A stretch of DNA of 64,000 nt from Chloroflexota bacterium (GTDB taxonomy: Bacteria; Chloroflexota; UBA11872), in the NCBI GenBank assembly GCA_965198185.1, contig CBDAOU010000001.1, positions 636,310 through 700,309 of the forward strand. Reading direction: 5' to 3'. Under the pieces are notes generated by a model. It had not been told where the DNA came from. It searched no databases and saw only the letters and a program-made list of their open reading frames with translations. The position numbers and the translations under genes were made by a program. Positions 4,303 to 8,483 of this stretch are shown here, one piece after another (positions within the stretch are counted from its first letter, which is position 1; each line of letters starts with the position of its first letter).

Positions 4303-6762
4303 TTAGGCGCTGACAGGGGCTCGGGTCGAGATGTCGAGCTCGTCGCCGGCACGGCCCACAATCACTTTCGAGCCGGTGGCAAAGGCGCCGCGGAGCAACT
4401 CCTCGGCCAACGGGTCCTCGATGAGATTCTGGATCACACGCCGCAGCGGGCGGGCGCCGAAGTCCGGGTCGTAGCCCTTCTCGGCCAGCAGCGACTTGGC
4501 CTCGGGAGTGACCTCCAGCTCCAGCTCGTGCTCGGACAGCTGTAGGCGCACGCGGCTCAACTCAAGGTCCACGATGGACTCGACGTCGGCGCGGGTCAGC
4601 GCGTGGAAGACCACGGTGCCGTCGACGCGGTTGAGGAACTCCGGCCGGAACAGCTTCTTGAGCTCGGCCAGCACCTTGGCCCGCATGTTCCGGTAGCGAG
4701 CCTCGTCCGCCTGCTCGCCCTCGTCGAAGTGGAACCCGAGCGAGGCGCCGCGTTTGATGTGCTGCGCGCCGACGTTGGAGGTCATGATGATGATGGTGTT
4801 GCGGAAGTCCACCGTGCGGCCCTTGGCGTCGGTCAAACGCCCGTCGTCCATGAGCTGGAGCAGGATGTTGAACACCTCGGGGTGGGCCTTTTCGACTTCA
4901 TCGAGCAGGATCACCGCGTAGGACCGGCGGCGCACGGCCTCGGTGAGCTGGCCGCCTTCCTCGTAGCCGACGTAACCCGGCGGCGCGCCCACGAGGCGCG
5001 AGACGGAGTGGCGCTCCATGTATTCCGACATGTCGATGCGGATCAGCGCGTCCTCGCTGCCAAACATGAACTCGGCCAACGCGCGGGCCAGCAGGGTTTT
5101 GCCGACGCCGGTGGGGCCGAGGAACATGAAGGCCCCAATGGGCCGCTGCGGGTCCTTGAGCCCGGCACGCGCGCGCCGCACGGCGCCGGCGACGGCGTGG
5201 ATCGGCTCCTGCTGGCTGACGATGCGGCGCGCGAGCACGTCTTCCATGTGCAGCAGTCGCTCGGATTCCTCCTGGCGAATGCGCGTGACCGGGATTCCCG
5301 TCCACATGGCGACGACCTGGCTCACTTCGTCCTCGCCGACGTTGGGCGGGCCCTCTCCCTGCTCGGAGGTCCAGGATGCGCGCGCCTCGTTCAACTCGAT
5401 GCGCAACTGCTGCTCGTTTTGCCGCAACTCGTTGGCGTCCTCGAAGCGCTGCTCGTTGATGGTGCGCGCCTTGTCGTTGGCGATCTGCTCGAGCTTGGTT
5501 TCCAGCTCCCGAACGGCGCGGGGTGGCATGCCGTGGCGAATCTTCACCTTCGCCGCCGCCTCGTCCATCACGTCGATGGCCTTGTCGGGGAGGAATCGGT
5601 CGGTCACGTAACGTCCGGCGAGCTCGGCGGCAGCCTTGACCGCGTCGTCCGTGATCCGCACCCGGTGGTGCTCTTCGTAGCGGGGGCGCACGCCGGTCAA
5701 GATGTCGATGGTTTCGTCGATCGACGGCTCGCGGACGGTGACCGGCTGGAAACGGCGCTCGAGCGCCGAGTCGCGTTCGACGTACTTGCGGTACTCGTCG
5801 AGGGTGGTGGCGCCGATGACCTGCAGCTCGCCGCGGGCGAGCGACGGCTTGAGGATGTTGGCGGCGTCCACCGCGCCTTCGGCCGCGCCGGCGCCAACCA
5901 CGGTGTGCAGCTCGTCAATGAACAGCGCGCAGTCGCTGGCCGACTTGAGCTCGTCAATGACCTTCTTGAGCCGCTCCTCGAACTCGCCGCGGTATTTGGT
6001 GCCGGCCACGAGCGCGCCCATGTCGAGCGTGAGCAACCGCCGGCCGCGGAGCGATTCGGGAACGTCGCCCGCAACGATGCGCTGCGCCAGACCCTCGACG
6101 ATGGCCGTCTTGCCCACACCGGGGTCGCCGATCAGCGCCGGATTGTTCTTGGTGCGCCGGCTGAGAATCTGGATGACGCGCTCGACTTCGTCGTGCCGCC
6201 CGATCACCGGGTCCAGCTTGCCGGCGCGGGCCGCGGCAGTGAGGTCGATGCCCATCTGATCGGCCACGGGCGTCTTCGAGCCGGCCTTTTTTCCTTCGCC
6301 GCGGCCGCGCTCGGTCGGGTTTTGGCTGACCAGCTGGACGACCTGCGCCCGCACCTTCTCCAGGTTCACGCCCAGGCTCTCGAGCACGCCGGCGGCGATG
6401 CCTTCGCCCTCGCGCACCAGCCCCAGCAACAGGTGCTCGGTGCCGATGTAGTTATGACCGAGCCGCCGCGCTTCCTCGATGGAGAGCTCAATGACCCGCT
6501 TGGCGCGGGGAGTGAGACTGATATCGCCGACCACCATGCGCTCACCGCGGCCGATGATGAACTCCACCGCGTTGCGCACTTTGTTCAACTCGACGCCGAG
6601 GTTCGTCAGCACCTGCGCGGCGATGCCCTCGCCCTCGCGCACCAGCCCCAGCAGCAAGTGCTCGGTGCCGATGTAGTTGTGGTTGAACCGCGTGGCCTCG
6701 TCTTGGGCAAAGACCAAGACCTTCTTCGCCCGCTCGGTGAACTTATTCAGGCGGTCGTTCAC
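4303..6762 (-). CDS. clpC: ATP-dependent Clp protease ATP-binding subunit ClpC
   Basis: 819 aa with a duplicated Clp_N repeat ('[11 protein letters not shown]' x2), two AAA+ modules (GDPGVGKT; GPTGVGKT) and a UVR-like middle region. GTG start at 6762. Confidence 0.95.
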
Positions 6763-7313
6763 CTGACATCCCCTGCAGCGGCCCCGGTGTCAGCCGTGGG
6801 CGGTGTCCTTGGCCTCAATTGTCGCACGATAGTCGGCCTCTGGCCCTCGCCGCGGCCGAGTTGGATCGAGCTCTGGCTCATCAACTGCGCGACCTGCGCC
6901 CGCACCTCTTCCAGGTTCACACCCAGACTCTCGAGCACCCCGGGGCCGGTTCCCCCGCCCTCGCGCAGGAGCCCCAGCAGCAGGTGCTCGGTGCCGATGT
7001 AGTTGTGGCCCAGCCGCCGCGCTTCCTCGATGGAGAACTCGATGACCCGCTTCACGCGGGGCGTCAGCCTGAAATTGCCCACCATCCTGGCCTCGCCGCG
7101 GCCGATGACAAACTCCACCGCGTTTCGAACCGTGCGCAACTCAACCCCCTGGTTGGTGAGCACCTGCGCGGCGATGCCCTCGCCCTCGCGCACCAGCCCC
7201 AGCAGCAAGTGCTCGGTGCCGATGTAATCGTGGTTGAACCGCGTAGCCTCGTCTTGGGCGAAGACCAAGACCTGCTTGGCGCGCTCGGTGAGTTTATTCA
7301 GGCGGTCGTTCAC
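6759..7313 (-). CDS. stand-alone Clp N-terminal (Clp_N repeat) domain protein, a recent duplicate of the clpC 5' end
   Basis: 184 aa, ~85% identical to ClpC residues 1-150. GTG start in the same 48-nt leader context as clpC. Its TGA stop overlaps the clpC GTG start (GTGA). Confidence 0.8.
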   Translation of the reverse strand: MNDRLNKLTERAKQVLVFAQDEATRFNHDYIGTEHLLLGLVREGEGIAAQVLTNQGVELRTVRNAVEFVIGRGEARMVGNFRLTPRVKRVIEFSIEEARRLGHNYIGTEHLLLGLLREGGGTGPGVLESLGVNLEEVRAQVAQLMSQSSIQLGRGEGQRPTIVRQLRPRTPPTADTGAAAGDVR

Positions 7314-7340
7314 CTGACATCCCCTGCAGCGGCCCCGGTG

Positions 7341-8483
7341 TCAGCCGTGGGCGGTGTCCAAGCTCCCCATTGTCGCACTCTCGCCGGCGTCGGTTGGTAA
7401 CGGCGACAACCGAATCCGCCGCCGGCCGGCGTCGATGCTCAGGATTTGGAACTTGCCGAAGTCCCCCTCGCGCATCGAGTCCAGCGCCGCGTCCCCCAGA
7501 TCGGAGGCGTGGGCCAGTCCTTCGATGCCGTCCGTGAGCCGCACGAAGGCTCCAAACGGCGCCAGCTTGGTCACCTCGCCCTCGACGATTTCGTTCACGC
7601 CGTACTTGGACTCCAGCGACTGCCAGGGGTCCTTGGTCGCGCGGCGCAGGCTGAGGGCGATCTTCTTGTCCTCGCGGTCCAGCGAGAGCACGTAGACCTC
7701 GATCTCCTGGCCCGGCTTCAGAATCTCCTCCGGGCTTTCGACCCGGCTCCACGAGAGCTCCGAGATGTGGGCCAAGCCGTCGGCGCCGCCCAGGTCGACG
7801 AAGGCGCCAAAACTGCAAATGTTGCTCACGATGCCCTGCCGCACCTGGCCGACCTGGAGCTCGTCCAGCAGCACCTCGCGGCGGCGCGAGCGGACCTCGC
7901 GCTCAGCCACGCGCTCGGAGAGGATCAGGCGATTGCGGCGACGGTCGAGCTCAATGATCTTGACGTTGATCTTGCGGCCCACCAGTTCCGCCAGCCGCGC
8001 GGCCAGCTCGTCCTCGGTCTCGTCGCTGGCCCCGCGCCGCAGGCTGGTGAGCTGCGACAGCGGCACGAAGCCGCGCGGCCCCACGTCCACCAGGACGCCG
8101 CCCTTGTTGTATTCGAGGATCGTGGCGTCGATGATCGTGCCGTTCTCGAACAGCTCCTCGGTGGCGCGCCACACCTTTTCCTGCTCGGCGCGGCGGAAGG
8201 AGAGCATGGCGCGGCCGTCGCCTTCCGGCTGCACCACGTACACCAGCACGGTCTCGCCAAGCGAATGAACCGGGCGCGGTTCCTCCAGCCGGGTGTCCCA
8301 CTGCTCGCGCTCGGGCACGAAGCCTTCGGCCTTGAGCCCGATGTCCACGAGAATCTCGTCGGGCTCGATGCCGACCACCACGCCTTCAAGCACGTCGCCG
8401 CGGCCGATGCTCGGCAGCTGCGAACTTGCGTCCTCCAGAAGGTCTTCCATGGACTCGAGCACCGGCATCTCATCCGGCGGCAT
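7341..8483 (-). CDS. rpsA: 30S ribosomal protein S1-like, four S1 domains
   Basis: Four S1 RNA-binding repeats (GxV.G.V....G.FV..G). The long ORF 7341..8624 probably starts at an internal Met near 8483, 8468 or 8450. Confidence 0.75.
   Translation of the reverse strand: MPPDEMPVLESMEDLLEDASSQLPSIGRGDVLEGVVVGIEPDEILVDIGLKAEGFVPEREQWDTRLEEPRPVHSLGETVLVYVVQPEGDGRAMLSFRRAEQEKVWRATEELFENGTIIDATILEYNKGGVLVDVGPRGFVPLSQLTSLRRGASDETEDELAARLAELVGRKINVKIIELDRRRNRLILSERVAEREVRSRRREVLLDELQVGQVRQGIVSNICSFGAFVDLGGADGLAHISELSWSRVESPEEILKPGQEIEVYVLSLDREDKKIALSLRRATKDPWQSLESKYGVNEIVEGEVTKLAPFGAFVRLTDGIEGLAHASDLGDAALDSMREGDFGKFQILSIDAGRRRIRLSPLPTDAGESATMGSLDTAHG

What the first reader, a model, noticed from the sequence alone, without database searches (positions are those of the whole stretch)
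6700..7400. Tandem ~552-bp duplication of the clpC 5' end creates a stand-alone Clp N-domain gene with an identical leader
The 184-aa ORF at 6759-7313 is ~85% identical to ClpC residues 1-150 (both Clp_N repeats). The 48 nt upstream of each GTG start are identical: 'GGACACCGCCCACGGCTGACACCGGGGCCGCTGCAGGGGATGTCAG|GTG' (6761-6808 and 7313-7360). The duplicate stop overlaps the clpC start (GTGA), so the two are translationally coupled. Since the coding part has diverged ~15% while the leader is identical, the leader is probably under selection, or the duplication is recent with later gene conversion. A free Clp_N domain could compete for adaptor/substrate binding (MecA/McsB-type docking occurs on this domain).
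Basis: seen in the sequence. Interest (0 to 1): 0.6.

Follow-up and report, generated by a model that had tools for sequence, protein, structure and literature searches.

The report
Free ClpC N-domain gene from duplication
An old 551-base head-to-tail duplication in an uncultured Chloroflexota lineage turned the front end of the clpC protease-chaperone gene into a separate, conserved gene for a free ClpC N-terminal domain, a locally born counterpart of the free N-domain proteins already known from mycobacteria and plastids.

Summary
All genes lie on the minus strand. A 551-nt unit (not 552) is repeated head to tail: 7391..6841 and 6840..6290, 85% identical. It creates a 184-aa Clp_N-only ORF (6759..7313) between an S1-domain gene and clpC (4303..6762). 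The ORF's TGA overlaps the clpC GTG. It is not an assembly artefact. S1-smallClpN-clpC recurs in at least six independent assemblies from several species-level lineages, one of them a 3.46-Mb circular contig.

The duplication is old. The small copies share derived sites across lineages, and dS is about 0.4. They evolve at omega 0.35-0.41, against 0.01 or less for the ClpC N-domain.

The identical leader has two causes:
- It is clpC's native translation-initiation region and is under purifying selection. A sponge-metagenome relative with no duplication carries it 46/46 identical.
- The 5' end undergoes gene conversion. In one lineage the upstream copy has drifted at the neutral rate.

No RNA structure, Rfam family or promoter was found. 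The likely function is inferred, not shown: a soluble N-domain that competes with ClpC for its ligands, as ClpC2 and ClpC3 do. It is a new variant of a known kind, of moderate interest.

The parts
7341..8624 (-). Gene for a four-S1-domain protein of 427 aa, a probable ribosomal protein S1 homologue. Its last ~50 nt form the start of repeat unit A.
   Evidence: Pfam S1 x4, E 3.6e-58. NCBIfam best match is 30S ribosomal protein S1, below the curated cut-off. An S1 gene lies upstream of clpC in more than 40 Chloroflexota loci.
6841..7391 (-). Repeat unit A (551 nt): S1 3' end, 27-nt spacer and the small Clp_N coding region.
   Evidence: Ungapped alignment to unit B, 85.3% identity.
6290..6840 (-). 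Repeat unit B (551 nt): diverged copy of the S1 3' end, the leader, and clpC codons 1 to about 157.
7314..7359 (-). Leader copy A (46 nt): the last 15 nt plus TGA of the S1 gene (7359..7341), then the 27-nt spacer CACCGGGGCCGCTGCAGGGGATGTCAG with a GGGGA Shine-Dalgarno-like motif.
   Evidence: Identical to copy B in the window, L003 and L001. Diverged at 13/46 positions from copy B in L084.
6759..7313 (-). Stand-alone Clp_N gene (GTG start, 184 aa). Residues 1 to about 150 are the double Clp_N repeat. Residues from about 156 to 184 are a tail read out of frame from the copied S1 end and leader.
   Evidence: Pfam Clp_N E 1e-37. PDB ClpC1/ClpC NTD E about 5e-45. Orthologues in other assemblies. 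Omega 0.35-0.41 between lineages.
6763..6808 (-). Leader copy B (46 nt). This is clpC's own translation-initiation region and now lies inside the 3' tail of the small ORF.
   Evidence: 1-4 differences in 46 nt between lineages against about 11 expected (P 3e-5 to 5e-3). 46/46 identical in L089, which has no duplication.
6759..6762 (-). GTGA: the small ORF's TGA stop overlaps the clpC GTG start. This geometry allows translational coupling.
   Evidence: The same 4-nt overlap occurs in L001, L002, L003, L084 and L086 despite repeat periods of 551, 581 and 617 nt, all equal to 2 mod 3.
4303..6762 (-). clpC (819 aa): Clp_N, AAA, AAA_lid_9, AAA_2 and ClpB_D2-small domains.
   Evidence: The N-domain is 100% identical in protein between lineages at dS of about 0.3-0.4 (omega 0.01 or less).
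7294..7359 (-). 66-nt block exactly identical to 6743..6808 (leader plus first 7 codons).
   Evidence: Permutation test.
7159..7226 (-). Second exactly identical block, 68 nt, equal to 6608..6675 (codons 30-52, [23 protein letters not shown]).
2195..4239 (-). Downstream context: radA (2905..4239) and ispD (2195..2908), the gene order usual after clpC.
   Evidence: Pfam results. Same order in L001 and L003.

Best explanation
In an ancestor of several related Chloroflexota lineages, one stretch of DNA was duplicated head to tail. The stretch ran from the last tens of bases of the S1 gene, through the 27-nt S1-clpC spacer, to clpC codon ~160.

The upstream copy became a separate gene. It uses a copy of clpC's own ribosome-binding region and GTG. 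It encodes only the ClpC N-terminal domain plus a short, probably disordered tail. It ends at a TGA overlapping the clpC GTG, so the two genes sit on one message and can be translationally coupled.

Shown here:
- The gene is real, old and conserved, and it evolves under purifying selection that is about 40-fold weaker than on the ClpC N-domain.
- The clpC-proximal leader is a selected cis element.
- The leader and the first ~40-50 codons of the two paralogs are repeatedly homogenised by gene conversion.

Inferred: the product is a soluble N-domain that keeps the ligand pockets. The equivalents of T7, E32, K85 and mostly E106 are retained. It would therefore bind what the ClpC N-domain binds: phospho-arginine-tagged or unfolded substrates, adaptors, or N-domain-targeting peptides. 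In that way it would buffer or compete with ClpC, as mycobacterial ClpC2 and ClpC3 do.
For: - **Anatomy:**
- **Independent assemblies:** S1-smallClpN-clpC-radA-ispD occurs in L003 (99% identical), L001 (3.46-Mb circular contig, 52x), L002 and L084-L086 (JGI). Further small orthologues are P0011 and P0107.
- **Old, single origin:** 22 sites where small copies from at least two lineages share a derived state, and a codon insertion (HTYH) shared by the L001, L002, L084 and P0107 copies. dS between paralogs and between lineages is about 0.4.
- **Protein-level constraint:** omega is 0.35-0.41 in codons 41-156 (Fisher P 4e-5 to 9e-4), against 0.01 or less for the ClpC N-domain. The indels that change the repeat period (30 and 36 nt) are multiples of 3.
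- **Gene conversion:** 9 of 11 variants that are specific to one genome but shared by both its paralogs lie at -26..+117. 21 of 22 paralog-specific sites lie at +85..+476. Identical runs reach 66-96 nt (P 5e-5 to 8e-4). The derived T in the leader is present in both copies of L001 and L002.
- **Leader selection:**
- **Ligand-pocket residues:** invariant or nearly so in six small copies. Residue roles are taken from PMC12583610.
- **Precedent for free N-domain decoys:** PMC10030653, PMC13345244 and PMC10864484.
Against: - There are no expression, binding or phenotype data, so the competitor role rests on analogy.
- Gene conversion from the highly conserved clpC imports low-dN sequence and can pull omega below 1 without any selection on the small protein. 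I limited this by using codons 41-156, but some conversion occurs there too.
- The closest pair, L001 and L002, has omega 0.70, not significantly below 1.
- One lineage (P0113/L084) has lost the E106 and R9 equivalents.
- A close relative (L089) does without the gene.
- The AlphaFold model was of low confidence (pLDDT 47).
Confidence: 0.55

Rival explanations
1. The small ORF is a functionless by-product of a tandem duplication. It stays open and clpC-like only because gene conversion from clpC keeps repairing it. It is lost by recombination between the repeats whenever that happens.
For: - Conversion is demonstrably active.
- The small copies evolve about 40 times faster than the parent domain, and L001 versus L002 gives omega 0.70, not significant.
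- L089 is a close relative with a single copy.
- L084 has lost two pocket residues, and its upstream leader drifts at the neutral rate.
Against: - Omega is 0.35-0.41 (P below 1e-3) in the region where small copies keep their own shared derived states, so that region is not being overwritten.
- The ORF, start codon, GGGGA motif and stop overlap are intact in at least six lineages at dS of about 0.4.
- Indels are in multiples of 3.
Confidence: 0.22
2. The ORF matters mainly in cis. It acts as a long upstream ORF whose translation, ending at GTGA, sets how many ribosomes start on clpC. The peptide itself is secondary.
For: The 4-nt stop/start overlap and the frame (period equal to 2 mod 3) are kept in all duplication-bearing loci despite different junctions. 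The ORF carries clpC's own initiation region.
Against: - clpC keeps its own conserved Shine-Dalgarno-like motif and leader, and in L089 it is expressed without any upstream ORF.
- A purely cis role predicts omega of about 1, not 0.35-0.41.
- With only three period variants, frame retention could be chance (about 0.1).
Confidence: 0.13
3. The repeat is an assembly artefact, a mis-join of strain variants at the internally repetitive Clp_N sequence.
For: The source is a metagenome. Clp_N is itself an internal 225-nt repeat. The copies differ by 15%, as strain variants might.
Against: - The same tandem, with lineage-specific sequence and three different junctions (551, 581 and 617 nt), occurs in assemblies from at least six samples, including a 3.46-Mb circular 52x contig.
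- The small copies share derived states that no clpC copy has.
Confidence: 0.01

Closest known systems
ClpC2 of Mycobacterium and other Actinomycetota (PMC10030653, PMC13345244)
   Same: A small non-ATPase paralogue of the ClpC(1) N-terminal domain. It keeps a pArg pocket and the peptide-antibiotic site, and acts as a sponge or competitor for ClpC1 ligands.
   Different: - ClpC2 has an extra N-terminal dimerisation and DNA-binding part and represses its own promoter. The present protein starts directly with Clp_N and has no other domain.
- ClpC2 is about 40% identical to the ClpC1 NTD, while this protein is 82-83% identical to its neighbour's NTD.
- The PDB match to ClpC2 is far weaker (E 5e-17 to 5e-21) than to ClpC NTDs (about 5e-45).
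- The origin is independent (a local tandem duplication) and the phylum differs.
ClpC3 and other single-domain 'Clp amino terminal domain' proteins of mycobacteria (Hoi et al. 2023, as summarised in PMC10864484; possibly PDB 8b9o)
   Same: A small protein made only of a Clp_N domain, reported to share ClpC1's ligand site and to compete for ligand binding.
   Different: It is not orthologous (E 2.5e-22 against about 5e-45 for ClpC NTDs). No tandem arrangement or overlap with clpC1 is mentioned in the papers I read. That 8b9o is ClpC3 is my assumption from its name.
ClpT1/ClpT2 of plant and algal plastids (PMC7966870; PDB 4y0b 'Double Clp-N motif protein')
   Same: Stand-alone double Clp-N-motif proteins derived from the ClpC N-domain.
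   Different: They are restricted to plastids, dock on the ClpP ring as accessory or assembly factors, and are very diverged (E 2e-10).
Uncharacterised Clp_N-only proteins of Chloroflexota and others (about 306 aa, two tandem N-domains; annotated 'Clp protease N-terminal domain-containing protein')
   Same: The same phylum. They are free Clp_N proteins with 60-69% identity to the query.
   Different: They have two N-domains in one chain. In the two loci examined they are encoded away from clpC, next to an MshEN-domain gene. They do not descend from this duplication.

Membership tests
Clp_N domain (PF02861, double repeat) | Two consecutive ~53-residue Clp_N repeats forming the N-domain of class I Clp/Hsp100 proteins | tested here: met
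   Two repeats, E 1.1e-37, 128 bits against a cut-off of 20.7. The AF2 model has 8 helices, though at low confidence.
ClpC (full-length AAA+ unfoldase) | N-domain plus two AAA+ modules (D1 and D2) | tested here: not met
   The small ORF has Clp_N only. The downstream 819-aa gene has AAA, AAA_lid_9, AAA_2 and ClpB_D2-small and is the true clpC.
ClpC2 (Actinomycetota) | N-terminal dimerisation and DNA-binding region preceding a C-terminal ClpC1-NTD-like domain | tested here: not met
   Clp_N starts at residue 1 and there is no other Pfam or NCBIfam domain. The only extra sequence is a C-terminal tail of about 30 aa.
ClpC2 (Actinomycetota) | Closer in sequence to ClpC2 than to ClpC NTDs (orthology) | tested here: not met
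   PDB ClpC2 chains score E 5.5e-21 and 5.3e-17, against about 5e-45 for ClpC1/ClpC NTDs.
ClpC2 (Actinomycetota) | Autorepression at an operator in its own promoter, relieved by ligand | not testable with these tools
   No promoter-like site was found in 6200..9000. The gene sits 27 nt after the S1 gene.
ClpT1/ClpT2 | Plastid accessory protein of the ClpPR core, found in algae and plants only | tested here: not met
   The context is bacterial. The PDB match to 4y0b is only E 2.3e-10. The plastid restriction is taken from PMC7966870.
pArg-binding ClpC N-domain | Pocket residues equivalent to T7, E32 and E106 (plus K85) of S. aureus / B. subtilis ClpC | tested here: met
   T9, E34 and K88 are invariant in six small copies. 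E109 is kept in five of six and is G in P0113. The residue mapping comes from my alignment offset, and the roles come from PMC12583610. Binding itself was not tested.
Translationally coupled gene pair | Overlapping stop and start codons on one strand | tested here: met
   GTGA at 6759..6762. The same overlap occurs in L001-L003, L084 and L086. Functional coupling cannot be tested here.
Paralogs under gene conversion (concerted evolution) | Mosaic identity tracts, and lineage-specific variants shared by both paralogs of one genome | tested here: met
   Identical runs of 66-96 nt, P 5e-5 to 8e-4. 11 sites specific to one genome but shared by both its paralogs, 9 of them at -26..+117.
Structured cis-regulatory RNA (thermometer, riboswitch, known leader) | Stable or covarying secondary structure, or a match to an Rfam family | tested here: not met
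   Fold z-scores range from -0.3 to +0.7. 0 of 22 predicted pairs show compensatory change, and the L084 changes break pairs. No Rfam hit at E up to 1.

The most novel reading that the evidence does not exclude
The free N-domain is a dedicated trans-acting partner of ClpC, made alongside it from a cloned copy of clpC's own initiation region and a coupled stop/start. It acts either as a brake or buffer on substrate and adaptor delivery, or as a decoy against N-domain-targeting peptides. At least one member of the clade comes from a marine-sponge metagenome (L089, Petrosia ficiformis). On this reading the 46-nt leader, conserved far beyond synonymous sites, is an undescribed post-transcriptional control element of clpC.
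Probability: 0.2. Interest if true: 0.6.

Novelty: new variant of a known kind. Interest (0 to 1): 0.4.

Why it matters
Free ClpC N-domain proteins (ClpC2, ClpC3) have recently proved important in mycobacteria. They sense and soak up ligands and antibiotics of an essential protease.

This locus shows such a protein arising independently in another phylum, and by the simplest possible route. A tandem duplication copied the ribosome-binding region along with the domain. The relatives include a single-copy relative (ancestral state or later loss, unresolved) and several diverged descendants.

That gives a natural series for two questions. Which constraints on the N-domain come from being tethered to the ATPase (omega 0.01 or less)? 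Which come from folding and ligand binding alone (omega about 0.4)?

It is also a clean small example of gene conversion limited to the 5' end of a duplicate. The functional claim remains untested, so the value is as a lead rather than a discovery.

Tried and rejected
- **Structured RNA in the leader:** single-sequence folds are no better than shuffles. The alignment fold shows no compensatory pairs, and the diverged L084 copy breaks the predicted pairs. There is no Rfam hit even at E up to 1.
- **Promoter in the leader:** no sigma-70-like site in 6200..9000, and only one weak terminator-like site on the other strand.
- **Frameshift or read-through fusion giving a ClpC with two N-domains:** rejected from the sequence. 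The clpC frame upstream of its GTG contains the copied S1 TGA, and the small ORF is in another frame.
- **Assembly artefact:** rejected.
- **Independent duplications in each lineage:** suggested by the different junctions and by each small copy being closest to ClpC. Rejected because derived sites and the HTYH insertion are shared. The star-like distances follow from fast small-copy evolution around an unchanging ClpC N-domain.
- **Membership in ClpC2, ClpC3 or ClpT:** rejected.
- **AlphaFold model from a 7-sequence alignment:** pLDDT 47, so it was not used for surface mapping or fold search.
- **The 80 GTDB loci:** the nearest ClpC is only 68% identical and none has this tandem, so they gave no close outgroup.
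- **Rooting L089 as ancestral or as a secondary loss:** the distances conflict, with S1 placing it outermost and clpC 4-fold sites placing it nearest L084. Left unresolved.
- **Other Clp_N copies in the window:** none beyond the two described.
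Full report
**1. Observation**

All the genes involved are on the minus strand. Reading 5' to 3' on that strand, they are:
- a 427-aa protein with four S1 domains (7341..8624);
- a 27-nt spacer;
- a 184-aa ORF starting with GTG (6759..7313);
- an 819-aa clpC (4303..6762).

An ungapped local alignment shows two adjacent units of 551 nt, 7391..6841 and 6840..6290, 85.3% identical. The repeat finder saw the same repeat (spacing 551) and also the internal 225-nt Clp_N periodicity. 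Tandem Repeats Finder missed it because its longest period is 500.

The unit begins about 50 nt inside the S1 gene. It contains the S1 stop, the spacer and clpC codons 1 to about 157.

The small ORF carries both Clp_N repeats (Pfam E 1e-37) and nothing else. It is 82-83% identical in protein to ClpC residues 1-155. Because 551 = 3x183+2, it reads the copied S1 end and leader in a new frame. It stops at a TGA overlapping the clpC GTG (GTGA, 6759..6762).

The quoted leader is present in both places. Exact identity runs for 66 nt (7359..7294 = 6808..6743). Runs of this length are unlikely at 85% identity (permutation P = 5.5e-4).

**2. Not an artefact, and not private to this genome**

A protein search found the same small protein, or diverged versions of it, in other assemblies: 99%, 84%, 73%, 69%, 64% and 63% identical, 184-206 aa long.

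Their contigs show the same order, DUF309 - SDR - S1 - small Clp_N - clpC - radA - ispD. All have the same 4-nt overlap with clpC.
- L003 is 99% identical, from another sample.
- L001 is a 3.46-Mb contig labelled circular at 52x.
- L002 and L084-L086 come from three JGI metagenomes.
- The window has radA, ispD and ispF downstream as well.

The repeat period differs between lineages: 551, 581 and 617 nt, all equal to 2 mod 3. A mis-assembly could not reproduce this.

One cluster member is annotated only as a hypothetical protein of a Chloroflexota MAG. Among 80 GTDB species representatives, the nearest ClpC is just 68% identical (Limnocylindria, Thermogemmatispora and other Chloroflexota). None has this tandem. 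The clade is therefore narrow and poorly sampled. An S1 gene upstream of clpC is, however, general in Chloroflexota, seen in more than 40 loci.

**3. Age and mode of evolution**

The ClpC N-domain is identical in protein across the window, L001 and L084, while its synonymous sites have diverged. dS is 0.23-0.42 for codons 41-156 and higher for codons 1-40. Omega is 0.01 or less.

The small copies are 76-87% identical to each other. Each is about as close to ClpC as to the other small copies, which is a star pattern around an unchanging parent.

They nevertheless share derived states that no clpC has:
- 22 sites are shared by small copies from at least two lineages, 3 of them by all.
- A one-codon insertion (HTYH) is shared by the L001, L002, L084 and P0107 copies.

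So there was one duplication, before these lineages split. It is not recent.

In codons 41-156 the small copies have omega 0.35-0.41 between lineages (Fisher P 4e-5 to 9e-4). The closest pair gives 0.70, which is not significant. This is purifying selection, but about 40-fold weaker than on the tethered domain.

**4. Why the leader is identical**

Two processes were separated.

(a) Selection on clpC's own leader.
- The clpC-proximal copy differs at only 1-4 of 46 positions between lineages. About 11 differences are expected from clpC 4-fold sites, where p is 0.24-0.25 (binomial P 3e-5 to 5e-3).
- A DNA-pattern scan found L089, from a Petrosia ficiformis sponge metagenome. In L089 the S1 gene is followed by the same leader and then directly by full-length clpC. 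There is no small gene.
- The L089 leader is 46/46 identical to the window's, although clpC 4-fold sites differ by 24%.
- The leader is therefore clpC's native initiation region and is conserved in its own right.

(b) Gene conversion.
- Some variants are specific to one genome yet present in both of its paralogs. They cluster at -26..+117 relative to the start codon (9 of 11 sites). Paralog-specific sites lie at +85..+476 (21 of 22).
- The derived T in the L001/L002 leader is present in both copies.
- Identical runs reach 68 nt in L001 and 96 nt in L002.

Identity of the upstream leader is not obligatory. In L084 it differs from the clpC-proximal copy at 13 of 46 positions, and from other lineages at the neutral rate. 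It still keeps the GGGGA motif and the GTG.

**5. What the leader is not**

- Folds are no more stable than shuffled sequence.
- An alignment fold of eight copies has no compensatory pair.
- There is no Rfam match.
- There is no promoter-like site.

The simplest reading is a ribosome-binding region for a gene read through from the S1 gene. Any further regulatory role is unproven.

**6. Likely function**

The protein is closest to solved ClpC1/ClpC N-domains (E about 5e-45). It is much further from ClpC2 (about 1e-17 to 1e-21), from a mycobacterial Clp_N-only protein (8b9o, 2.5e-22) and from plastid ClpT (4y0b, 2e-10).

Across six small copies, the residues corresponding to T7, E32 and K85 of S. 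aureus ClpC are invariant. The E106 equivalent is kept in five of six and the R9 equivalent in four of six. The mapping uses my alignment offset. In S. aureus and B. subtilis ClpC these residues form the two phospho-arginine pockets and the contacts that hold ClpC in its resting state (PMC12583610).

In mycobacteria, ClpC2 and ClpC3 bind the same ligands as the ClpC1 N-domain and act as sponges or competitors. ClpC2 is also a ligand-released repressor (PMC10030653, PMC13345244, PMC10864484).

By analogy, I propose that this free N-domain is made from the same message as ClpC and competes for or buffers ClpC's N-domain ligands. That step is inference. Nothing here shows expression or binding.

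**7. Comparison and novelty**

The protein is not a member of ClpC2: it has no N-terminal DNA-binding part and is not orthologous. It is not a ClpT either. It is a locally born analogue in another phylum. What sets it apart:
- its origin by tandem duplication;
- its copied initiation region;
- its overlap with clpC;
- the 5'-restricted gene conversion.

Free Clp_N proteins are common in Chloroflexota metagenomes. Many clusters of ~306-aa double-N-domain proteins turned up, and in the two loci examined they are encoded away from clpC. The general kind is therefore neither rare nor new. I rate it a new variant of a known kind, with moderate interest.

**8. Limits**

- Gene conversion can bias omega downward.
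- The root of the clade is unresolved, so L089 may be ancestral or a secondary loss.
- The AlphaFold model was too poor to map substitutions onto surfaces.
- Only 64 kb of this genome was available, so the presence of McsB, MecA or other N-domain partners is unknown.

Noticed in passing
L007:3941-7535 (Chloroflexia MAG MFD00392.bin.2.277): A separate, apparently independent case. A 464-nt copy of the clpC 5' end, 98.7% identical and starting 2 nt before the ATG with no shared leader, lies 1852 nt upstream of clpC and just after the S1 gene. It gives a ~165-185-aa Clp_N ORF. Between the copies are one or two strongly diverged Clp_N ORFs (4632-5446). clpC itself is split at about 7535, probably by a sequencing frameshift.
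   Followed up: partly
L089:10818-13376 (LXNJ01001566.1, Petrosia ficiformis sponge metagenome): A close relative with S1 - identical 46-nt leader - full-length clpC and no small Clp_N gene. It is either the pre-duplication state or a loss by recombination between the repeats. Its position in the clade is unresolved.
   Followed up: partly
L087:5001-5921 and L088:1375-2295: A widespread family of ~306-aa proteins made of two complete Clp_N domains (dozens of clusters, mostly unnamed metagenome proteins). In these two loci it is encoded next to an MshEN-domain gene and not near clpC. Its function is uncharacterised.
   Followed up: partly
window 4303-6762 (clpC, first 150 codons): The ClpC N-domain is 100% identical in protein across lineages whose synonymous sites differ by dS of 0.3-0.8 (omega 0.01 or less). 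This is unusually strict conservation even for this domain.
   Followed up: yes
window 10206-10419 (+): Two adjacent tRNA-Ser genes (anticodons TGA and GCT) lie just beyond the DUF309 gene. This flank is not alignable with L001.
   Followed up: no
window 10624-11131 (+): A likely type II toxin-antitoxin pair: an 85-aa ORF with no Pfam hit overlaps an 88-aa ParE-family toxin by 17 nt. Relatives carry other TA modules at the same flank (PIN/PhdYeFM in L003, ParE in L084), so this is a variable spot.
   Followed up: no
window 7341-8624 and loci L004-L066: An S1-domain gene directly upstream of clpC is conserved in more than 40 Chloroflexota loci. The spacer is only 27 nt in this clade, which suggests co-transcription of a ribosomal-protein-like gene with clpC.
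   Followed up: partly
window 6843-6870 versus L001:5530-5581 and L084:4540-4617: The junction and tail of the small ORF differ between lineages by 30- and 36-nt indels. In L001 and L002 the segment just upstream of the clpC-proximal leader (ATGGGGAC[C/T]TGG) resembles the S1 end (ATGGGGAGCTTGG) more closely than in the window. This suggests conversion tracts with different 5' limits.
   Followed up: partly
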